This document shows, piece after piece, positions 5,435-29,206 of a DNA stretch of 64,000 nucleotides; the stretch's first letter is position 1; every line of letters begins with the position of its first letter. Position numbers and translations under genes: made by a program. Source of the stretch: a virus (Duplodnaviria; Heunggongvirae; Uroviricota; Caudoviricetes); IMG/VR virus record IMGVR_UViG_3300035670_000138, positions 1-64,000 of that record; one strand, written 5' to 3'. Under the pieces are notes generated by a model. That model worked only from the letters and a program-made list of their open reading frames with translations. It searched no databases and was not told the origin of the DNA.

Positions 5435-5905
5435 ATGAACATATTTTTCACAGATCCCGATCCTGTTAAATGTGCCGAGTATCTAGACAACAAACGAGTA
5501 ATTAAGATGATTCTCGAATCCTGTCAAATGCTATCTACTGCAATAAATGAGTCTGGAGGGAAAGCTCCATACAAATCTACTCATAAAAATCATCCCTCAA
5601 ATGTTTGGGTTAGACAGTCTTACGATAACTTTAAATGGTTATGGAATCATATGTTAGCTTTAAACGATCAGTATTATACTAGATTTGGTAAGAATCATAA
5701 GTCTGCTGTTATATTTAAAAACTCCGACATTCTAGATCAAGCAGAAGCTTTACTTCCTAAAGTAGGGTTAACCAATAAGCCTAATTGTGCTGCTAATTCT
5801 GGGTTAGGAATATCATATAAACATGTTAGCGATATATACGAGGCATATAAACTATACTTGAATGATCGTTGGGAGAATGATAAAAATGATGTTAAATGGA
5901 GTTAA
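5435..5905 (+). CDS. pyrimidine-dimer DNA glycosylase-like (T4 endonuclease V superfamily) protein
   Basis: The SD aggagg precedes the ATG. The N-terminus MNIFFTDPDPVKCAEYLDNKRVIKMILESCQML..HKNHPSNVWV..NFKWLWNHMLALNDQYY resembles bacterial and phage PDG-family (Pyr_excise-like) proteins. I call the function from memory only. Confidence 0.4.
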   Translation: MNIFFTDPDPVKCAEYLDNKRVIKMILESCQMLSTAINESGGKAPYKSTHKNHPSNVWVRQSYDNFKWLWNHMLALNDQYYTRFGKNHKSAVIFKNSDILDQAEALLPKVGLTNKPNCAANSGLGISYKHVSDIYEAYKLYLNDRWENDKNDVKWS

Positions 5906-6251
5906 GCTTAAGAATGGAGATCTTCTTGTTAGAAACTCCTATTACCCCATAATAGAATCAAAGATTACAAGAAAATGTTTATTTAGATTTGAGGAATATA
6001 AAGGAGAATACTATTTATATTCTAATATTGAAGCTTTTTGGGGAGATTCAACTAAATATATCTCACTAAACTCTGATTATCCGAATTGTCATAATGAATA
6101 TACTAGATATATAAATTTACCTTTAGTAAACATACAAACATACTACACTCCGTATATGAAATGTTATCCAAATTCATCATTATACAAAACATTATATCCT
6201 AACGGTCAGGAAGACGGTAATTTTTGGAAGGTATTACAATGCGAAAATTAG
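5886..6251 (+). CDS. YPNG-tail family member 1 (C-terminus ...CYPNSSLYKTLYPNGQEDGNFWKVLQCEN)
   Basis: The conserved C-terminal module lies at the extreme C-terminus. SD gggaga precedes the ATG at 5886. Confidence 0.55.
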   Translation: MMLNGVKLKNGDLLVRNSYYPIIESKITRKCLFRFEEYKGEYYLYSNIEAFWGDSTKYISLNSDYPNCHNEYTRYINLPLVNIQTYYTPYMKCYPNSSLYKTLYPNGQEDGNFWKVLQCEN

Positions 6252-6496
6252 TTTATTGTATAAGAAATAAAAATCGTAAAGAGTTAGTTAAGAATAGAGC
6301 ATACTTAGCTATAGGATATAAAAAATTTAATGAGGGGTATCTTTTTACATTAGAAGGACATTCCACATTTGACTATTGCTGCACTAGATTTAAAGAAATT
6401 AGGCTATATCCCAACACTAAATTATTTCAACAATTATATCCAGACCATATATTATACCAAGGTAAACTAGGAGTTCTCAGTGAAATTAAGTTATAG
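6224..6496 (+). CDS. YPNG-tail family member 2, divergent (...LYPNTKLFQQLYPDHILYQGKLGV...)
   Basis: The ATG follows the ggaagg embedded in member 1's tail codons. The C-terminal module is present but degenerate. Confidence 0.5.
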   Translation: MEGITMRKLVYCIRNKNRKELVKNRAYLAIGYKKFNEGYLFTLEGHSTFDYCCTRFKEIRLYPNTKLFQQLYPDHILYQGKLGVLSEIKL

Positions 6497-9545: not shown

Positions 9546-9788
9546 ATGAAAATAAAACTAAGTAAAGAAATTGAGAAGAATTTAATATTGAAGCCTCAAA
9601 TTTTGAGACATTTTGAGACTAATGATCCGACACCTCAGAATATAGCTTCTTATTGTGCAATGGTTGGAGTTCCAATAGTTAGTACTTATTACTATTTAAT
9701 TACTGACAATAACAGAAAAGAATTGATTAAAGATTTAATTAGATTGTGCGAGTTTTACGATATGGAGGTTGATTGTGAGATTACCTAA
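9546..9788 (+). CDS. hypothetical protein (80 aa; alternative TTG start at 9528)
   Basis: ORF. The start is ambiguous because the hairpin overlaps the region just upstream. Confidence 0.35.
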   Translation: MKIKLSKEIEKNLILKPQILRHFETNDPTPQNIASYCAMVGVPIVSTYYYLITDNNRKELIKDLIRLCEFYDMEVDCEIT

Positions 9789-10041
9789 AGTCGGTGAATA
9801 TTGGAAAGGTCGAGACTTTTATGGTGAGATAGTTTCTGGTGAGGTAACTAAAGTAGGAAGTTCATATGAACCTGATATGCAATATATAAAAATAACTCGT
9901 GAAGATGTAGGTTTAGCTCTAGAATTACATTGGGTACTTGCTATTGAACCTGCATTTAGGGATTACCCCAACACTGAAATATTTCGTAAATTATATCCTA
10001 ATGGACAAGAATGTGCTAGATTTTGGAGGGTAAATGTCTAA
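9775..10041 (+). CDS. YPNG-tail family member 3 (...DYPNTEIFRKLYPNGQECARFWRVNV). GTG start
   Basis: The C-terminal module is present. SD ggagg sits 6 nt before the GTG. Confidence 0.5.
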   Translation: MRLPKVGEYWKGRDFYGEIVSGEVTKVGSSYEPDMQYIKITREDVGLALELHWVLAIEPAFRDYPNTEIFRKLYPNGQECARFWRVNV

Positions 10042-10318
10042 ATTTTACAATATAAAAATAAATACTTTAGTAGAGTGCATAGATACTTCAGATTTAATAG
10101 ATGCTGCAATTAAAGAAGGAAATAAATACATAGTATATCGTTATAATTATGATCCCTATATAGACACTGTTCACCTAAAATGTGTTATATCGGGAGAATT
10201 TTCCGGTCCTTATTTTGTTCACAGGTTTAAGTCAGTTAAATTTTATCCAAATACATCTCTTTTTAGAGAGTTGTATCCAAATGCAATTATTGAAAAAAAT
10301 TTCTTGAAAATAATTTAA
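10034..10318 (+). CDS. YPNG-tail family member 4 (...KFYPNTSLFRELYPNAIIEKNFLKII)
   Basis: The ATG follows the ggaggg embedded in member 3's tail codons. Confidence 0.5.
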   Translation: MSKFYNIKINTLVECIDTSDLIDAAIKEGNKYIVYRYNYDPYIDTVHLKCVISGEFSGPYFVHRFKSVKFYPNTSLFRELYPNAIIEKNFLKII

Positions 10319-19893: not shown

Positions 19894-20391
19894 ATGAGAA
19901 TGTCTCCATTTTCAGCAGTGCTAAGAATATTACTATTATTTAGTATTGTAAATAGCTGTGCTAGATTAAGTAAAATGGTCAGAATAGAGCCAACTCATAA
20001 TGGAATAGATCCTCGACTATCTTCGTATGTATCAGAAGTAAAACGACTGTCTAAAGGATGCTTAGGTAATGTTAAATATGCTGCGATAACTAATTTGAGT
20101 GAACAGTACGATCAAAGTCTCGCAGGAATGGCTAGTTATGTACTGCCTAATTTTAAACATCAGATAGAATTAGACGACTATTACTGGAAGAGAGTATCTC
20201 ATATACCGAGATTACTGACAGTAGCTCATGAACTATATCATATTGAAAATACTTACTTCTATCATATAAACGAAGTTGACGAATGGGGATGTGCTAAGCA
20301 TTTTATGTTCCATCAAGTTCAATCGTATTGGTGCGATGTATTTAACTTTGAAAAGTATGTTAAACAAATGCAGGATTGTCACGATGAGTAA
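19894..20391 (+). CDS. secreted protein with an HExxH zinc-metallopeptidase-like motif (VAHELYHIEN)
   Basis: A signal-like N-terminus MRMSPFSAVLRILLLFSIVNSCA is followed later by the HELYH motif. The motif alone is weak evidence. Confidence 0.3.
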   Translation: MRMSPFSAVLRILLLFSIVNSCARLSKMVRIEPTHNGIDPRLSSYVSEVKRLSKGCLGNVKYAAITNLSEQYDQSLAGMASYVLPNFKHQIELDDYYWKRVSHIPRLLTVAHELYHIENTYFYHINEVDEWGCAKHFMFHQVQSYWCDVFNFEKYVKQMQDCHDE

Positions 20392-20713
20392 GTATTTAGG
20401 TAAAAGAGTAAAGATTAACAAAACAGGTGAAACTGGAATTATAGTAGCGTTTGATAACTATGACGGAGATTATGTTTTTATATATGACGATCGTGATTAC
20501 AACCCAGATTCTGTTTTTATAGATGCCGACGATTATATATTTATTGGTAGCGGAGTTATTAGAGTAGATAATATAATGGATTATTTACGTAGAGAATATG
20601 ATTGGTTTTATTCTGTGGAATTTACCCCAATTAAATTATACCCTAATACGGAATTATTCAAAAAGTTATATCCTAACGGTACTGAAAAAGAAGGATTTTG
20701 GGAGGTTTGTTAG
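20384..20713 (+). CDS. YPNG-tail family member 5 (...KLYPNTELFKKLYPNGTEKEGFWEVC)
   Basis: It starts at an ATG with SD ggtaaaag. The C-terminal module is present. Confidence 0.55.
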   Translation: MSKYLGKRVKINKTGETGIIVAFDNYDGDYVFIYDDRDYNPDSVFIDADDYIFIGSGVIRVDNIMDYLRREYDWFYSVEFTPIKLYPNTELFKKLYPNGTEKEGFWEVC

Positions 20714-21072
20714 TGACAGAAGTTGAAGCAAAAAAATATATAGGTAAAAAAATTAAATGTACGATTAGACCACTTGTTGAAGGTATCGTTGTTGGATTTT
20801 CAATGAAGGAACAGGATTTTTTAATAGCACCACCCTTTCGAAAAATTTCTATTTCATTAGATGAATTTGTAAATGATATACACTCTAAACTTTATGGAAA
20901 TGAATCATATTGGTTTGATTTTGATTTATGTGACAAATTCAAGAATAGTGAATATGACTTTATACGGTTCGATAACGTGATATTATTATCTAAGTTTTAT
21001 CCTAACTCTACGTTATTTAAAACTATATATCCTAACGGTACTGAAGAAGATGGATTTTGGAGGGTAGATTAA
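20713..21072 (+). CDS. YPNG-tail family member 6 (...KFYPNSTLFKTIYPNGTEEDGFWRVD). GTG start
   Basis: The GTG lies 7 nt after the GGAGG encoded by member 5's FWEV codons. Confidence 0.55.
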   Translation: MTEVEAKKYIGKKIKCTIRPLVEGIVVGFSMKEQDFLIAPPFRKISISLDEFVNDIHSKLYGNESYWFDFDLCDKFKNSEYDFIRFDNVILLSKFYPNSTLFKTIYPNGTEEDGFWRVD

Positions 21073-21075
21073 GTT

Positions 21076-21468
21076 ATGAAATATAAATTGTTAAACACAG
21101 ACATATTATATTCCAAATCTGAGTTTAAAAAACTATACAGTATGTTAGGTAAAAAATACTTAATAGATGAATCTATAGTTAAGGTTGTAGGTTTAGATCT
21201 TGATGATAACGATTTGCTTTGCGTGGATGCAAATTCAAAACTTGACGAAACCCATTCGGAATATTCTTTTTTTAACGTTTATAATAATAAAAAAAATTAT
21301 AACATAATATTTGCTATTGATTCTGTTAAATTTGAACTAAATGAATGGGATTGGCATTATGGATCACACCTAGTTCCTTATGTGAAAAAATATCCCAAAA
21401 CTAAGCTATTCAAAAAGTTATACCCTCAAGGTAAATCTGTAAAAGGATTTTGGGAAGTCGAACAATGA
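21076..21468 (+). CDS. YPNG-tail family member 7 (...KKYPKTKLFKKLYPQGKSVKGFWEVEQ)
   Basis: The ATG follows the ggaggg embedded in member 6's tail codons. Confidence 0.55.
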   Translation: MKYKLLNTDILYSKSEFKKLYSMLGKKYLIDESIVKVVGLDLDDNDLLCVDANSKLDETHSEYSFFNVYNNKKNYNIIFAIDSVKFELNEWDWHYGSHLVPYVKKYPKTKLFKKLYPQGKSVKGFWEVEQ

Positions 21469-21686
21469 ATATAATTGAGAAAACCACTAGTACTTGTTAC
21501 TATAAGATAGATCTTTTATTCCCTAAGTTTATAATTCACAAGAAAGTAAATAGTGAATTTGGAGAATGTTACATAACTAAATTTGATTTATCAACAAAAT
21601 TAATGTTGCAAGATTACGAAAAACGTGTTATAATAGATTTTAGAATCCTCGGATTTGGTATACGAGGATATTTTAGTTGGAGTTAA
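21465..21686 (+). CDS. hypothetical protein (73 aa)
   Basis: The ATG follows the gggaag in member 7's tail codons. Confidence 0.35.
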   Translation: MNIIEKTTSTCYYKIDLLFPKFIIHKKVNSEFGECYITKFDLSTKLMLQDYEKRVIIDFRILGFGIRGYFSWS

Positions 21687-22801: not shown

Positions 22802-23377
22802 ATGAGTAATAAGCTAAACGATATAGTCGAACTCGCTCATGACTATCATATAAACTTATCCACTAAGACTACGTGGATTACTGGCGAAATTGATGAAGAA
22901 CAAGCCGATAGGTTAAGTAAGAACTTGTCAATTCTAGACAGTAATCAAAACAATAAGCCTATAACTATAATACTAGATTCGTCGGGTGGAGAAGTTAATC
23001 AGGGGCTTAGAATGTACAATCTTATATGTAATTGTACGAACGTGGTAAGGATTATTGTCGAGGGTAAGGCTGAATCTATGGCTAGTATTATACTACAAGC
23101 CGGAGATGAAAGGATTATGTTTGCAGACTCTCATTTAATGCTACATATAGGTACTGAAGCATTTGCCGAAGATCACCCTGAGAATGTTAAAAGATGGAAA
23201 GCTAAGGCAGAAATTGACACAAAAAGAACAGAAGACATATACTTAAGTCGGATTAAAGAAAAAAAGAAAAAATTTACAAGAAATCAGTTGAAAGAAATGT
23301 TAAACTTTGATACAATATTATCACCAAAGGAAGCAATGGAGCTTGGATTGGTAGATAGGATTGAAACAAATGTATAG
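22802..23377 (+). CDS. ClpP-family (S14) serine peptidase
   Basis: The segment ITIILDSSGGEVNQGLRMYN matches the ClpP oxyanion region. GKAESMAS carries the catalytic Ser and MLHIGT the His. Confidence 0.6.
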   Translation: MSNKLNDIVELAHDYHINLSTKTTWITGEIDEEQADRLSKNLSILDSNQNNKPITIILDSSGGEVNQGLRMYNLICNCTNVVRIIVEGKAESMASIILQAGDERIMFADSHLMLHIGTEAFAEDHPENVKRWKAKAEIDTKRTEDIYLSRIKEKKKKFTRNQLKEMLNFDTILSPKEAMELGLVDRIETNV

Positions 23378-23717
23378 CGAAAATGAAATCCTCGTATTAG
23401 TTGAAGACATAGGCGAAGAAGGTACTGATAAGTTCATTGCAAAAGGAACTGAGGTTATCTTTCTAAAAGTAATTGACAATCCTGCAGACCTTAGTAAAGC
23501 TATGGTTCATATAAAGCACGGTAAAAGAGGTCTAGTTGTTCCGGAAATAGCAGTTACGCCTAAAGATCGTAAGAAGCTAGTTAAAGCGTTAGACGAGTTT
23601 AACAAAGCGTTTCTAGAGCAAAATCCTGACCTTAAAAGGTATCACCCAAATATAATTTTAAGATACTATTATAGATTTATTCACTTCATCAAAGGATTGA
23701 TAAATGGACGAAATTAA
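23370..23717 (+). CDS. hypothetical protein (115 aa)
   Basis: ORF overlapping the ClpP stop. Confidence 0.4.
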   Translation: MYSENEILVLVEDIGEEGTDKFIAKGTEVIFLKVIDNPADLSKAMVHIKHGKRGLVVPEIAVTPKDRKKLVKALDEFNKAFLEQNPDLKRYHPNIILRYYYRFIHFIKGLINGRN

Positions 23718-23967
23718 GTATGTTAGATGGAAAAAACCTACCGATTTAAGAAGTAAATTCACTAAGGGAAAGAAGTATAGAGTTGAAATTCGATCTGCTA
23801 ATAGGATCAATATTTACGACGATGTTGGCAATTCTCGCCATTGTAATTTTGATGTTATTGAACAATACTTCGATTTATTCGATTATTTGCCAAATACTAA
23901 GTTATTTAGAGAATTACATCCAAATGCGTCTGTTGAGGGAAATAAACTTAAAGTATTAATTAAGTAG
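23704..23967 (+). CDS. YPNG-tail family member 8 (...DYLPNTKLFRELHPNASVEGNKLKVLIK)
   Basis: The C-terminal module is present. Confidence 0.5.
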   Translation: MDEIKYVRWKKPTDLRSKFTKGKKYRVEIRSANRINIYDDVGNSRHCNFDVIEQYFDLFDYLPNTKLFRELHPNASVEGNKLKVLIK

Positions 23968-23975
23968 GGGAATGT

Positions 23976-24245
23976 ATGAATATTAAAGTTGGAGATAAAA
24001 TCCGTTGGATATATTTAGAACATCGTAAAGATTTAACAATGAATAATGTATATACAGTTAATAGAGTAGAAAACAACGAAATATGGTTTCGTGACGATGG
24101 TGAGTGGGAACGCTTTGTGTACGACTATCAATTTCCTAATTGTTTTGAACTAGTTAACAAGTATTATCCTAATACTAGTTTATTTAGAAAACTGTATCCA
24201 GAAGGTAAAGAACAAGGTAAATTTATAGAGGTAACTCGTGAATAA
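23976..24245 (+). CDS. YPNG-tail family member 9 (...KYYPNTSLFRKLYPEGKEQGKFIEVTRE)
   Basis: SD gtagggg precedes the ATG. The C-terminal module is present. Confidence 0.55.
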   Translation: MNIKVGDKIRWIYLEHRKDLTMNNVYTVNRVENNEIWFRDDGEWERFVYDYQFPNCFELVNKYYPNTSLFRKLYPEGKEQGKFIEVTRE

Positions 24246-26043: not shown

Positions 26044-26235
26044 ATGTATAACTTTATACTATTTTATATTTATTTTGCGAGAATCATGACAAACGAATCA
26101 GTAAATTATGTTGAACCAATTCCTGTTGATAAATGTGAGTATTATGTTTGTCAATCTAGTACATATAGAGAGTGTCTAAAAGAGGAAATTGACTATAGGA
26201 TTCTTGAATGTTCTAACATAAGGATAGAAAAATAA
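26044..26235 (+). CDS. hypothetical protein (63 aa)
   Basis: ORF. Confidence 0.3.
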   Translation: MYNFILFYIYFARIMTNESVNYVEPIPVDKCEYYVCQSSTYRECLKEEIDYRILECSNIRIEK

Positions 26236-26576
26236 TGTTGAATCATCTAGTAAGAAGTCATTTCTTTGGAGAATTTGGTATTTATGAAATAATAGCAAGG
26301 TCTTCTAGTGAAGCATTGTTACTTTGTAGTGACAAAGAATATTCTCGACCTTTTAAATTAAATAAAACTATACTTAACGATATGAAAATAGCGGAGAGTT
26401 TAGGACAAATGACTATCTCTGAAAATATAGAAAAACATCTTAATAAACCTATAACTTGGACATGGTTAGAAATTGGCGGAAGTATTTGTACTAAATTTGT
26501 ACCTAATACTTCTCTATTTAGAGCTATGTATCCTGATGGTGTCGAGTTTGGTAATAAACTAAGGGTAATGAAGTGA
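26235..26576 (+). CDS. YPNG-tail family member 10 (...KFVPNTSLFRAMYPDGVEFGNKLRVMK)
   Basis: SD aaggatag precedes the ATG. The C-terminal module is present. Confidence 0.5.
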   Translation: MLNHLVRSHFFGEFGIYEIIARSSSEALLLCSDKEYSRPFKLNKTILNDMKIAESLGQMTISENIEKHLNKPITWTWLEIGGSICTKFVPNTSLFRAMYPDGVEFGNKLRVMK

Positions 26577-26847: not shown

Positions 26848-27087
26848 ATGTTACAAGTATTGATTGCATTGTGGATTGCTTTTTTAGTTATTTATCTAAT
26901 CAATAATTTAGTGATTAGTAAATACAAACAAGTTGAGGAAGATGAAGAATTAGAGGACATTATTGAGGATCAAGAATCATTAGAAAGACAGGCTAAGATT
27001 ATAGAGGAACAAGAAAAGAAATCCTCGTATTTTAGCAGATTAAGAAATAAGAAAAAAGTAGAGTCATTTAAAAAGGAGAAGAAATGA
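26848..27087 (+). CDS. small membrane protein (N-terminal TM, acidic coiled-coil tail), first gene of the SPFH cluster
   Basis: The segment LIALWIAFLVIYLINNLVI is hydrophobic. SD aaggagg precedes the ATG. Confidence 0.5.
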   Translation: MLQVLIALWIAFLVIYLINNLVISKYKQVEEDEELEDIIEDQESLERQAKIIEEQEKKSSYFSRLRNKKKVESFKKEKK

Positions 27088-28325
27088 GTTTAAAACAACA
27101 GTTTTTATTAGGAGTGGCAGTACTAGGTACAATTACAGTACTTGCACTATCGGGCAGCATTGTTGAAACAAACAATGAAGGTTACTATCAAATTAAACAA
27201 GCGTCGTTTACTGGAGACATGAGTGTTAGAAATACTCCGGGTATGTACTTCCAGAACTTCGGTAATATTTCTGATTACCAAATCTCAGACATGTACTATT
27301 TCGGTTCAAACGATAGCAGCGAACCTATCTTAGTAAGGTTTAACGACGGTTCAACAGCTAAGATTTCAGGTTCTATTAAGTTTAAACTGAGTCAAAAAGA
27401 AGAAGATCAACTTCTTTTACACAAAGATTTTAAGAACTATAACGCTGTAGTAAACGACTTAGTTAGACAGACGGTTGCCGAATCTCTAAAGCAAACAGCA
27501 TCTTTGATGAAAGCTGAAGAGACTTATTCTTCGAAAAGATCTGAGTTTGTATCACTATCTGAAGATCAAATCGCTAAGGGTATTTTCGCAACATCTGCTA
27601 AAGATATTGAAGTTGAAGATATCTCTGGTCAAAAGTTTATCCAAAGAGCAGTTGATGTTAAACTTGATGACAAAAACCAACCAGTTATTGAAAAGAACTC
27701 TCTGTTGAAGAGATACAATATCCAATTACTACAATTCGTAATTACCGATATTGACTTTGATGAAACTATCGATAAGTTAATTAACGAAAAGAAGAAGGCT
27801 GAGCAAGCTAAGGTTGTTGCTAAAGCTAAAGCTGAAGAAGCTAAGCAAGATGCGATTACAGCTAGAGAACAAGGTGCTGCAAGGATTGCTCAAGCTAAGG
27901 CTGATGAAGAAGTTGAGAAGATTAAAGAAGTAACTCAAGCTTTAAAAGCTAAAGAAGTTGCCGAGCTTGACGCTAAAAAACGTAAAGTTGTAGCAGAACT
28001 TGATGCTCAAAAAGAGTTCGAAGTTGCTAAACTAAACCGTCTTAAGGCTGAAGAAGAAGCTAACGCTAAACTTACTATTAAACAAGCTGAAGCTAAGGCT
28101 AACGAATTACTAGTTAAGGCAGGGTTAACTCCACTAGAAGCTGCTAAAATGGAAATGGAGACTAAAATTGGCATTGCTAGAGAGCTTTCTAATATTAAGT
28201 TACCAAGCACATTTATCGGAGCAGGTTCTGGAGCAGGTGGAGCAGCGTTAGATCCATTTACTGCTGTAGGGTTAGAATCGTTAATGAGAATTAATGAAAA
28301 AATGTCTGCAGGTAATAAAAAATAG
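27084..28325 (+). CDS. SPFH/band-7 (stomatin/HflKC/flotillin-like) membrane protein
   Basis: An N-terminal TM (LGVAVLGTITVLALSG) is followed by an SPFH-like core and a long A/K/E-rich coiled-coil (AKAKAEEAKQDAITAREQGAARIAQAKADEE...). Confidence 0.65.
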   Translation: MSLKQQFLLGVAVLGTITVLALSGSIVETNNEGYYQIKQASFTGDMSVRNTPGMYFQNFGNISDYQISDMYYFGSNDSSEPILVRFNDGSTAKISGSIKFKLSQKEEDQLLLHKDFKNYNAVVNDLVRQTVAESLKQTASLMKAEETYSSKRSEFVSLSEDQIAKGIFATSAKDIEVEDISGQKFIQRAVDVKLDDKNQPVIEKNSLLKRYNIQLLQFVITDIDFDETIDKLINEKKKAEQAKVVAKAKAEEAKQDAITAREQGAARIAQAKADEEVEKIKEVTQALKAKEVAELDAKKRKVVAELDAQKEFEVAKLNRLKAEEEANAKLTIKQAEAKANELLVKAGLTPLEAAKMEMETKIGIARELSNIKLPSTFIGAGSGAGGAALDPFTAVGLESLMRINEKMSAGNKK

Positions 28326-28396: not shown

Positions 28397-29206
28397 ATGA
28401 AATGGTTGTTATTGTTAATGTTGAGTATGACATATTCTCATGCTCTAGTTCTTGGAGAGAATAATACAGTATCTCTTAGGAACGAATATCGTTCTAATAC
28501 TGTATCAACGGTTATCCACAAGCTACAAAAAATTCACACTAATCTTCCAGAAGGTGCTGAAATTAACTTGTATTTAGACAGTCCGGGTGGATCGATTATT
28601 GCAGGTGAAGAATTAATCAAGTTTGTTAACTCTTTAAATCGTCCTGTGAACGTGATTTGCAACTTCTGTGCATCTATGGCTTTCCAAACCCTTCAAGGAA
28701 TTAACGGTAAAAGGTTAGTTACTAATATGGGTATTTTAATGTCACATAAGGCTTATGGAGGCTTTGACGGAGAATTTCCGGGGCAATTAGAAAACAGACT
28801 TAATTTCTGGTTAAAAAGGCTAAATAAGGTTGATGAAGCTGTTGTTAAGAGAACAAACGGAAAACAAACTTTAGAAACGTATAAAGAATTATACGAGAAT
28901 GAATATTGGTGTACAGATACTGATTGTATTAATGATGGATTTGCTGATGCAGTTGTTGACGTAACTTGTGATAAAACTCTTAACGGGATTGAAACACAGA
29001 TTGTCCAAGGATTCTTCGGTAATTTTGAGGTACATTTAAGTAAATGCCCTATAATCACTGGCGTAATAAAGTATAGATCTCTTGATAGTGACGGTGATCC
29101 TATTGGTCCATTTATTACAAATTCTGAAGACGATTTAATGGATCTATTACTGAAGGGCAAGTCTATCCAAGGTATTAATAGAATTAACTTAAACGATGTT
29201 AGATAA
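28397..29206 (+). CDS. NfeD-like / ClpP-class (S49/S14) secreted serine peptidase
   Basis: The signal peptide is MKWLLLLMLSMTYSHA. LYLDSPGGSIIAGEELIKF is a ClpP-like oxyanion segment, and CASMAFQ carries the catalytic Ser. The gene follows the SPFH gene, as in bacterial stomatin/NfeD operons. Confidence 0.55.
   Translation: MKWLLLLMLSMTYSHALVLGENNTVSLRNEYRSNTVSTVIHKLQKIHTNLPEGAEINLYLDSPGGSIIAGEELIKFVNSLNRPVNVICNFCASMAFQTLQGINGKRLVTNMGILMSHKAYGGFDGEFPGQLENRLNFWLKRLNKVDEAVVKRTNGKQTLETYKELYENEYWCTDTDCINDGFADAVVDVTCDKTLNGIETQIVQGFFGNFEVHLSKCPIITGVIKYRSLDSDGDPIGPFITNSEDDLMDLLLKGKSIQGINRINLNDVR

What the first reader, a model, noticed from the sequence alone, without database searches (positions are those of the whole stretch)
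20384..21468. The conserved tail codons double as the ribosome-binding site of the next gene (a translational-coupling cassette)
In the triple tandem at 20384..21468, the codons for G-F-W-E-V (ggattttgggaggt) contain GGAGG positioned 6-9 nt before the next start. These starts are GTG 20713, ATG 21076 and ATG 21465. The same happens for the pairs at 6224 and 10034. Each family member therefore carries, in its last 15 nt, the SD for whatever lies downstream. This reads as a portable cassette with a self-contained 3' expression boundary. The roughly 75-nt 3' segment is also similar enough between copies to act as a recombination substrate for cassette gain, loss or exchange. That would be analogous to the conserved boundary elements flanking hyperplastic regions of other large phages.
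Basis: partly seen in the sequence, partly recalled or inferred. Interest (0 to 1): 0.6.

Follow-up and report, generated by a model that had tools for sequence, protein, structure and literature searches.

The report
Ribosome site inside a gene-family tail
Three neighbouring small phage genes, members of an undescribed family, end in a shared protein motif whose last codons also form the ribosome-binding site of the next gene; this is real, but it is how nearly every gene in this tightly packed phage is arranged.

Summary
Three tandem genes (20384-20713, 20713-21072, 21076-21468) share a 75-nt 3' segment, 71-77% identical, that ends in G-F-W-[E/R]-V. Only two tails contain GGAGG; the third has GGGAAG. 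The spacers to the next start are 7, 12 and 7 nt, not 6-9.

They belong to a family with at least 11 copies in this roughly 77-kb uncultured phage and about 90 sequence clusters in metagenomes. Members have a variable SH3-like barrel and a conserved 27-residue C-terminal module. There is no confident Pfam match.

In 21 of 27 members with DNA in hand, the three codons [W/L/I]-[E/R/K/G]-V pair with the anti-Shine-Dalgarno sequence, and a start codon follows the V codon by 1-9 nt. Codon choice is biased towards that pairing (z = -6.9 against synonymous recoding). Most members with a distant downstream start lack the motif.

This arrangement is the genome's rule: 40 of 63 plus-strand genes have their ribosome site inside the upstream gene.

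A relative (L018) has one gene where the window has three, one extra member elsewhere, and one where the window has two. Gain and loss of members is therefore real. Recombination within the tail is not supported, because the DNA similarity is about what protein conservation predicts. Overall this is ordinary operon architecture in a new, fast-changing gene family.

The parts
20384..20713 (+). Family member w5 (109 aa), first of the triple
   Evidence: ORF. Exact protein P0001, called identically in three samples. Family HMM E=2.8e-48.
20713..21072 (+). Family member w6 (119 aa). Its GTG start overlaps the TAG stop of w5 by 1 nt.
   Evidence: 119 aa in all three call sets. HMM E=1.3e-51.
21076..21468 (+). 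Family member w7 (130 aa). The start is ambiguous: ATG 21076 (Logan calls) or ATG 21142 (JGI call, 108 aa).
   Evidence: P0015 is the 108-aa form.
20632..20706 (+). Conserved 75-nt 3' segment of w5, encoding IKLYPNTELFKKLYPNGTEKEGFWEV
   Evidence: Reference copy of repeat family D1. AlphaFold pLDDT 90-97 for this module, folded as strand-helix-hairpin.
20991..21065 (+). Conserved 75-nt 3' segment of w6
   Evidence: 77% identical to the w5 copy. Shares a 20-nt exact match with it.
21384..21458 (+). Conserved 75-nt 3' segment of w7
   Evidence: 71% identical to the w5 copy.
20700..20706 (+). Embedded SD GGGAGGT (codons W-E-V), with GGAGG 7 nt before GTG 20713
   Evidence: Duplex dG -11.4 with the anti-SD.
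21059..21064 (+). Embedded SD GGAGGG (codons W-R-V), with GGAGG 12 nt before ATG 21076
   Evidence: dG -9.8. The spacer is long, and the motif is unused if w7 starts at 21142.
21452..21457 (+). Weak SD-like GGGAAG (codons W-E-V with GAA), 7 nt before ATG 21465
   Evidence: dG -4.8, the weakest of the synonymous variants sampled.
21465..21686 (+). Unrelated 73-aa downstream gene, whose ATG overlaps the w7 stop (ATGA)
   Evidence: Its L018 orthologue (75 aa, 49% identity) starts at TTGA right after that phage's single family member.
20371..20376 (+). SD-like CAGGAT inside the upstream 165-aa gene, serving w5
   Evidence: dG -4.1, spacer 7.
5886..6251 (+). Family member w1 (121 aa, P0003). Tail TGG AAG GTA, with GGAAGG 7 nt before ATG 6239.
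6239..6496 (+). Family member w2 (85 aa, P0004). Tail CTA GGA GTT gives AGGAG, 6 nt before GTG 6480 of the PD-(D/E)XK nuclease gene.
   Evidence: The same arrangement is seen in L006.
9775..10041 (+). Family member w3 (88 aa). Tail TGG AGG GTA, with GGAGG 4 nt before ATG 10034.
10034..10318 (+). Family member w4 (94 aa, P0005). Tail TTG AAA ATA has no SD. The DnaB-like gene downstream has its own SD, CGGAGGTA.
   Evidence: Its orthologues in L005 and L020 behave the same way.
23704..23967 (+). Family member w8 (87 aa, P0006). Tail CTT AAA GTA has no SD at the usual codons. The SD for w9 (TAGGGGA) lies over the stop codon. L018 has no w8.
23976..24245 (+). Family member w9 (89 aa, P0014). Tail ATA GAG GTA gives AGAGGT, 5 nt before GTG 24238.
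   Evidence: The downstream N-terminal extension PKKYNKGKPMM is conserved in L018, which supports the GTG start.
26235..26576 (+). Family member w10 (113 aa, P0002). Tail CTA AGG GTA gives AAGGG, 7 nt before GTG 26573.
   Evidence: Its L018 orthologue has TTA AGG GTT before ATG.

Best explanation
**What it is**
- The triple tandem is a local expansion of an undescribed family of small early-region phage proteins (60-130 aa).
- Each protein has a fast-evolving SH3-like beta-barrel.
- Each also has a conserved 27-residue C-terminal module, K-x-Y-P-N-T-x-L-F-[KR]-x-L-Y-P-x-G-x5-[FM]-[WLI]-x-V, predicted to fold as strand, helix and beta-hairpin.

**How the tail works**
- The genes sit in a long polycistronic unit in which almost every cistron abuts or overlaps the next.
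- As a result, the last strand of the module is also the Shine-Dalgarno site of whatever gene follows.
- The exposed middle residue is free to be E, R, K or G, and selection picks the codons that best pair with the anti-SD (GAG, AGG, AAG, GGA).
- The next start codon lies 1-9 nt after the V codon, and the family's own stop floats from 17 nt of overlap to a 3-nt gap.

**Gain and loss**
- Members are gained, lost and duplicated between related phages as start-to-next-start units.
- A unit therefore takes over the resident SD and hands a new one to the displaced downstream gene.
- This is the ordinary way a gene must be built to persist in such an operon. It is not a dedicated mobile-element boundary.

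**Shown versus inferred**
- Shown: the motif positions, the codon bias, the genome-wide norm and the copy-number variation.
- Inferred: actual ribosome use of the motif, coupling of translation, and the protein's function.
- The function is most probably that of an accessory host-interaction protein whose common C-terminal module docks on a shared partner.
For: - **Family.** There are 10 members in the window plus one just upstream. About 95 clusters at 50% identity score E<=1e-3 among 1.84 billion representatives; a few long repetitive ones are probably spurious. The small ones mostly carry the module at the C-terminus, and in 69 of the 89 I could parse 0-4 residues follow V.
- **SD at homologous codons.** The motif is present in 8 of 10 window members, in w0 and in relatives L003, L005, L006, L007, L008, L018 and L022.
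- **Codon bias.** For 21 members with a start within 12 nt of the V codon, mean dG is -8.4 against -4.7 under synonymous recoding (z=-6.9, 0 of 3000). For 6 members with a distant or overlapping start it is -1.7 against -1.0. The rare codons AGG (14% of Arg), CTG (4% of Leu) and GTG (7% of Val) are used there.
- **GGAGG marks starts.** 17 of 28 occurrences do so.
- **Genome-wide norm.**
- **Starts.** They are supported by independent gene calls and by conserved N-termini in orthologues.
- **Copy-number variation and precise indel edges.**
- **No transcription signals.** Promoter and terminator counts are not above background.
Against: - There are no expression data, so SD use is inferred.
- The host, and therefore its anti-SD sequence, is unknown.
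- The w6-to-w7 spacer is 12 nt, and the w7 start is disputed between gene callers.
- The w7 tail uses GAA, the weakest synonymous option.
- One member, L022 3126-3449, has a perfect TGGGAGGTA with no start nearby. The motif can therefore persist without that use, or simply reflect ancestry.
- Orthologous junctions are not independent data points, so the z-score is inflated.
- E, R and K are also natural residues for an exposed beta-strand position, so protein-level constraint explains part of the purine richness.
Confidence: 0.7

Rival explanations
1. The conserved 3' segment is a dedicated mobile-cassette boundary. In this reading it is at once a protein module, a ribosome site and a recombination site. 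Homologous exchange between tails would move, duplicate or delete cassettes without polar effects. It would be a coding-sequence counterpart of T4-type PeSL elements or integron attC sites.
For: - Member number and position differ between relatives whose flanking genes are 45-87% identical.
- Syntenic slots hold members with different N-domains. L006a, in the w1 slot, resembles w5. P0007, in the w0 slot, resembles w8/w9.
- DNA homology with relatives resumes at the conserved segment: L006:525 with window 6386, and L005:339 with window 10236.
- The L018 single gene has a w5-like N-half and a w6-like C-half.
- There is a 20-nt exact match between the w5 and w6 tails.
- The phage encodes an ERF-type annealing protein.
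Against: - The tails are only 40-76% identical.
- Codon identity at shared residues is 283 against 253 expected, so there is no DNA-level homogenisation.
- The indel edges that could be read lie at start codons, not inside the tail.
- Homology resuming at the tail is what fast divergence of the N-domain alone would produce. P0010 and w2 remain alignable by eye.
- The tails contain no hairpin or inverted repeat.
- No cassette variation is seen among four near-identical sampled strains, which are 99.98-100% identical.
Confidence: 0.15
2. The SD-like tail is only a by-product of the protein motif, since W is always TGG and the exposed charged residue and V follow. Downstream genes would then be translated by SD-independent reinitiation at the stop-start overlaps.
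For: - W-[E/R/K]-V is conserved at protein level across about 89 family proteins.
- One member keeps TGGGAGGTA with no gene to serve.
- w7 uses GAA.
- Overlaps of 1 and 4 nt are the classic reinitiation geometry (PMC12548453).
Against: - Synonymous choice is strongly biased towards SD pairing where a start follows, and not elsewhere.
- Where the residue before x is L, the rare G-ending codons CTG or TTG are used to complete GGAGG.
- Members followed by a long gap have non-SD residues, and the next gene then carries its own strong SD.
- GGAGG is about 26-fold concentrated before starts.
Confidence: 0.1

Closest known systems
Spatially and translationally coupled cistrons in prokaryotic and phage operons, with the SD of the distal gene inside the proximal ORF and overlaps of 4 or 1 nt (review PMC12548453)
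   Same: The genes are co-directional. The stop-to-start spacings are a 1-nt overlap, a 3-nt gap and a 4-nt overlap in the triple. The SD lies in the last codons of the upstream gene. The same arrangement holds at 40 of 63 genes of this phage.
   Different: Here the SD falls on the same three codons of a conserved protein module in many paralogues and in relatives. One motif therefore carries both constraints repeatedly. Dependence of downstream translation on upstream translation was not tested.
PeSL elements (promoter-early stem-loop) that flank variable ORFs in the hyperplastic regions of T4-type phages (PMC2839356, PMC4122927)
   Same: A short repeated sequence sits at the edges of small, variable, function-unknown early genes whose presence differs between related phages.
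   Different: PeSLs are intergenic, carry an early promoter and a terminator-like stem-loop, and are described as mediating exchange. Here the repeat is coding, there is no promoter or terminator signal above background and no hairpin. The DNA similarity is about what the protein conservation predicts.
Phage morons and multi-copy accessory gene families in early regions
   Same: These are small non-essential-looking genes gained and lost between relatives, placed between conserved replication and nucleotide-metabolism genes.
   Different: From my own knowledge, morons are defined as autonomous units with their own promoter and terminator. These genes have neither and depend on the surrounding operon.
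SH3-like, Tudor and KOW small beta-barrels (for example the SH3 domains of Dda, RecD2 and Pif1 helicases, and the TraI translocation-signal domain)
   Different: Sequence identity is only 8-15%, so the match is generic to the fold. The conserved YPNT...LYPNG C-terminal module has no confident match in the PDB by sequence (best E=0.026, Quinolinate synthase A), in Pfam (best hits E 7.5e-05 to 0.004, one member each) or in isolated phage genomes.

Membership tests
Translationally coupled operon junction | Co-directional ORFs with a stop-to-start spacing of about -4 to +3 nt | tested here: met
   w5/w6 overlap by 1 nt (TAGTG). w6/w7 are separated by 3 nt. w7 and the 73-aa gene overlap by 4 nt (ATGA).
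Translationally coupled operon junction | An SD for the distal gene lies within the proximal ORF at a functional distance | tested here: met
   GGGAGGT, GGAGGG and GGGAAG lie with 7, 12 and 7 nt between GGAGG (or GGGAAG) and the start. Codon bias favours pairing. The third is weak and the second is far from the start.
Translationally coupled operon junction | Translation of the distal gene depends on translation of the proximal gene | not testable with these tools
   Only a proxy was possible. The predicted unpaired probability of positions -15 to +3 is 0.32-0.58 against a genome mean of 0.53, so there is no clear sequestration.
PeSL (T4-type mobile regulatory cassette boundary) | A composite early promoter plus stem-loop terminator in an intergenic spacer | tested here: not met
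   The scan found 44 promoter-like sites against 48.7 expected, and 3 terminator-like sites against 3.4, none on the plus strand. The repeat lies wholly inside coding sequence.
PeSL (T4-type mobile regulatory cassette boundary) | DNA-level conservation of the repeat beyond what any coding constraint explains | tested here: not met
   The copies are 40-76% identical. Identical codons number 283 against 253 expected from codon usage.
Moron | An own promoter and terminator flank the inserted gene | tested here: not met
   Junctions are overlapping or 3 nt or less.
Integron-type gene cassette | A 3' imperfect inverted repeat (attC) and an integrase nearby | tested here: not met
   There are no local inverted repeats in the tails. 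No integrase appears among the called genes or Pfam hits of the region.
YPNT-LYPNG C-terminal module family (defined here) | A small protein ending in K-x-Y-P-N-T-x-L-F-[KR]-x-L-Y-P-x-G-x5-h-[WLI]-x-V, with 0-6 further residues | tested here: met
   All three genes score E<=1e-48 against the family HMM built from these three genes, which is circular. The independent support is the other window members at E 3e-12 to 5e-3.

The most novel reading that the evidence does not exclude
The conserved tail is a three-in-one element: a protein docking module, a ribosome-binding site and a short-homology recombination site. It would let this phage lineage insert, duplicate and swap accessory genes inside essential polycistronic operons without polar effects. 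That would be a coding-sequence analogue of PeSL or attC cassette boundaries.
Probability: 0.15. Interest if true: 0.6.

Novelty: new member of a known kind. Interest (0 to 1): 0.3.

Why it matters
- **Annotation.** For this phage group, start codons of genes that follow family members can be placed with confidence 1-9 nt after the V codon. Examples are GTG 6480, GTG 24238 and GTG 26573.
- **A clean example of dual coding.** One exposed beta-strand residue varies among E, R, K and G while its codon stays purine-only and G-rich.
- **An undescribed protein family.** It is widespread in metagenomes, with about 90 clusters. Copy number changes between close relatives (3 against 1, 0 against 1, 2 against 1, 1 against 4-5). 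That pattern is typical of host-interaction or counter-defence genes, and the family may be worth testing for function.
- **Limits.** The mechanism of expression itself is textbook operon architecture, so the finding does not open a new question about translation or mobility.

Tried and rejected
- **Isolated phages (INPHARED).** Megablast of the region, tblastn of w5 and tblastn of a consensus tail gave no relative. The DNA polymerase is only 24-26% identical to Salinibacter and Nostoc phage polymerases.
- **IMG/VR and JGI metagenome scans.** Scans with the family pattern gave only chance matches. One call failed for lack of a conserved stretch.
- **A more distant relative.** The 78.7-kb phage (L009-L012, found through the 165-aa neighbour) has no family member in the 20 kb read, so it could not inform on the triple.
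- **First AlphaFold model.** The model built from 15 sequences was poor outside the tail, and its Foldseek search against the PDB was meaningless.
- **RNA, transcription and repeat signals.**
  - Rfam and tRNA scans found nothing.
  - The promoter and terminator scan gave background levels.
  - mRNA accessibility around the junctions was unremarkable.
- **Strain-level variants.** L013-L015 are 99.98-100% identical to the window and show no cassette variation.
- **Pfam, PHROGs and the PDB by sequence.** No family covers the C-terminal module. A few PHROG hits are each limited to one or two members; I did not check which part of the protein they match.
- **Rejected idea.** I rejected the view that purine-only codons at the x position prove an RNA-level constraint on their own. 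E, R and K are also what an exposed strand residue would be, and V, I or L occur there in 21 of 89 family proteins.
Full report
**What is in the window**

The window is an AT-rich (34% GC) segment of an uncultured phage whose contig is 76.7 kb long. Plus-strand replication and nucleotide-metabolism genes run to about 30.1 kb, and minus-strand structural genes follow. It has no near relative among isolated phages.

At 20384-21468 there are three co-directional ORFs of 109, 119 and 130 aa. Each ends in a 75-nt segment, at 20632-20706, 20991-21065 and 21384-21458. The second and third are 77% and 71% identical to the first.

**Checking the observation**

| Gene | Tail codons (W-x-V) | Motif | Spacer | Next start | Junction |
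|---|---|---|---|---|---|
| w5 | TGG GAG GTT | GGAGG 20701-20705 | 7 nt | GTG 20713 | overlaps the TAG stop by 1 nt |
| w6 | TGG AGG GTA | GGAGG 21059-21063 | 12 nt | ATG 21076 | 3 nt after the TAA stop |
| w7 | TGG GAA GTC | GGGAAG 21452-21457, no GGAGG | 7 nt | ATG 21465 | ATGA overlap |

- Two Logan call sets give these starts. The JGI set agrees for 20713 and 21465 but starts w7 at ATG 21142.
- ATG 21142 has no SD in front of it. If it is the true start, the second tail's GGAGG is idle.
- For the pair cited at 6224, the supported start is ATG 6239, preceded by GGAAGG and 7 nt.
- At 10034 the motif is GGAGG with a 4-nt spacer.

"GGAGG at 6-9 nt" holds strictly for only one of the three junctions.

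**The gene family**

A profile built from the three genes finds seven more members in the window:

- w1 at 5886-6251
- w2 at 6239-6496
- w3 at 9775-10041
- w4 at 10034-10318
- w8 at 23704-23967
- w9 at 23976-24245
- w10 at 26235-26576

An eleventh member (w0) ends 76 nt before the window's first base.

The members share only a C-terminal module, K-x-Y-P-N-T-x-L-F-[KR]-x-L-Y-P-x-G-x5-[FM]-[WLI]-x-V. Their N-terminal parts are barely alignable.

- A search of 1.84 billion cluster representatives gave 95 proteins at E<=1e-3.
- A few long repetitive hits look spurious. The small ones are 60-140 aa and mostly carry the module at the C-terminus; in a few it lies near the N-terminus.
- In 69 of the 89 I could parse, 0-4 residues follow the V.
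- Pfam, PHROGs, the PDB by sequence and isolated phage genomes have no confident match to the module.

**Is the tail a ribosome-binding site?**

I read the three codons [h]-x-V in 27 members for which DNA was in hand. These were 11 from this phage and 16 from fragments of relatives (L003, L005, L006, L008, L018, L020, L022), whose neighbouring genes are about 32-87% identical in protein, most of them 45-87%.

In 21 of the 27, a start codon follows the V codon by 1-9 nt. There the codons are:

- TGG GAG GTN
- TGG AGG GTA
- TGG AAG GTA
- TGG AGA GTT
- TGG GAA GTC
- CTG or TTG GAG GTT
- ATA GAG GTA
- CTA or ATA GGA GTT
- TTA or CTA AGG GTN
- TTA AGG ATT
- TTA AAG GTA
- TTG GTG GTG

The pairing energies compare as follows:

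| Group | n | Observed mean dG | Expected under synonymous recoding | Significance |
|---|---|---|---|---|
| Start within 12 nt of the V codon | 21 | -8.4 kcal/mol | -4.7 | z=-6.9, 0 of 3000 |
| This phage alone | 9 | sum -67.5 | sum -44.8 | 1 of 3000 |
| Distant or overlapping start | 6 | -1.7 | -1.0 | not significant |

- Rare codons are recruited: AGG (14% of Arg), CTG (4% of Leu) and GTG (7% of Val).
- In the six other members, the tail is TTG AAA ATA, TTG ATA ATA, CTT AAA GTA or TAT GAA ATA. The next gene then has its own strong SD in the spacer (for example CGGAGGTA before DnaB) or an SD displaced a few codons.
- There is one exception. L022 3126-3449 keeps TGGGAGGTA with no start nearby.
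- GGAGG is itself a good marker of starts in this genome. 17 of its 28 plus-strand occurrences lie 3-13 nt before a called start.
- Downstream starts are corroborated by orthologues.
  - The PD-(D/E)XK gene starts with GTG right after the AGGAG tail in both this phage and L006.
  - The peptide PKKYNKGKPMM, just upstream of the start called in L018, is conserved with synonymous changes between the window and L018. This supports GTG 24238 in the window and a TTG in L018, each 5 nt after the tail SD.

I conclude that the embedded SDs are real and under selection. Their use by ribosomes remains an inference.

**Is it special?**

No. On the plus strand, 57 of 63 genes have an SD with dG of -4 or lower. 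40 of 63 have it inside the upstream gene, and 48 of 62 junctions are overlapping or 10 nt or less apart. Every gene in this operon-like block carries the next gene's SD in its tail.

Short overlaps with an SD in the proximal ORF are the commonest junction type in prokaryotes (PMC12548453).

What is particular is that the SD falls on the same three codons of a conserved module.

- The model explains why this costs little. The last strand alternates buried W/L/I and V with an exposed middle residue.
- Across 89 family proteins that residue is E 25, R 22, K 12 and G 3, but also V 11, I 5 and L 5.
- Protein constraint therefore fixes TGG and GTN, and the SD constraint chooses among purine codons.

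Strict translational coupling is not shown. The junction geometry fits it, but the SD regions are not predicted to be unusually structured.

**Do cassettes vary among relatives?**

Yes. L018 is a 10.3-kb fragment syntenic with window positions 17.5-30.1 kb, and its neighbouring genes are mostly 45-87% identical.

| Position | Window | L018 |
|---|---|---|
| Between the 165-aa gene and the 73-aa gene | w5, w6, w7 | one member (115 aa) |
| Between ClpP and the 112/115-aa gene | none | P0098 (102 aa) |
| Before the dGTP-diphosphohydrolase-like gene | w8, w9 | one member (w9-like) |
| w10 slot | w10 | one member |

- Upstream of the amidase gene, L022 has four or five members in tandem. L003 has one, and the source phage has w0 plus an unrelated 55-aa gene.
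- Syntenic slots can hold members with different N-domains. L006a sits in the w1 slot but resembles w5, and P0007 sits in the w0 slot but resembles w8/w9.
- The P0098 indel is exact.
  - The ClpP tail SD (AGGATTGA...) is followed in the window by the ATG of the 115-aa gene.
  - In L018 it is followed by the GTG of P0098, whose tail (TTGGAGGTTCCAT) then abuts the same ATG.
  - The w8 indel has the same shape.
- The unit of gain and loss is therefore "own start codon to the base before the next start". Such a unit necessarily brings an SD for the displaced gene.

**Is the tail the recombination site?**

This is not supported.

- Across the ten window copies the 75-nt segments are 40-76% identical.
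- The longest exact matches are 20 nt (w5/w6), 16 nt (w5/w7) and 15 nt (w1/w5), against a background 95th percentile of 8 nt.
- At positions where two copies share an amino acid they share the codon 283 times, against 253 expected from codon usage. Protein conservation accounts for nearly all the DNA similarity, and there is no sign of homogenisation.
- The readable indel edges lie at start codons.
- The L018 single gene has a w5-like N-half and a w6-like C-half. This is compatible with a deletion between paralogues. At 30-40% identity it is equally compatible with descent from an unduplicated ancestor.
- There is no promoter, terminator or hairpin in or near the tails. The PeSL elements of T4-type phages (PMC2839356, PMC4122927), morons and integron cassettes are therefore analogies of outcome, not of mechanism.

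**Verdict**

The finding is a correct and slightly over-stated reading of ordinary operon architecture in a tightly packed phage, applied to a new, fast-evolving and copy-number-variable gene family. The embedded SDs are well supported computationally. Gain and loss of members among relatives is demonstrated. A dedicated recombination role for the tail is not supported. I rate interest at 0.3. The family itself, rather than its ribosome sites, is the more promising lead.

Noticed in passing
window 21076-21142: Gene callers disagree on the w7 start. Logan calls ATG 21076 (130 aa), and JGI calls ATG 21142 (108 aa, which is P0015). The later start has no SD and would leave a 69-nt gap. The earlier one has GGAGG at a long 12-nt spacing.
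   Followed up: partly
L016 3-110 (ends 76 nt before window position 1): An eleventh family member (w0, the C-terminus of P0090) lies just outside the window. Its tail TTA AGG ATT gives AAGGA, 7 nt before the ATGA start of a 55-aa gene.
   Followed up: yes
window 22802-23377, 27084-28325, 28397-29206: There are two ClpP-family protease genes and a Band_7/stomatin-like gene in the early-to-middle region. The second ClpP-like gene sits next to the stomatin-like gene.
   Followed up: no
L018 3938-4201: The relative has an 87-aa gene between the RNase_H_2-like gene and ClpP. It had no tblastn match in the window at E<=1e-4.
   Followed up: no
P0056, P0061, P0095: These metagenome proteins of 270-327 aa are made of four tandem repeats that resemble the family's SH3-like N-domain (GDxVxCID...GKxYxV...DDxG...RF) and lack the YPNT tail. 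The barrel may therefore be an independent, reusable domain.
   Followed up: no
window 9775-10041 versus L007 313-624 and L020: The w3 orthologues share an identical first 10 residues (M/V-RLPKVGEYW) and the tail. The middle 60 residues are unalignable although the neighbouring genes are 64-84% identical. This suggests internal replacement or extreme divergence.
   Followed up: partly
L022 3126-3449: This family member has a perfect TGGGAGGTA tail but no start codon for 70 nt. It is followed by a degenerate 73-aa family member and may mark a decaying end of the array.
   Followed up: no
window 19894-20391: The gene upstream of the triple encodes a signal-peptide-like N-terminus and has a weak match to the putative phage metallopeptidase family (PF18894, E=2e-4, below the cutoff). 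Its only homologue outside this phage group, apart from the 163-aa gene at the same position in L018 (45% identical), is 38% identical and lies in a 78.7-kb phage that uses a family A polymerase.
   Followed up: partly
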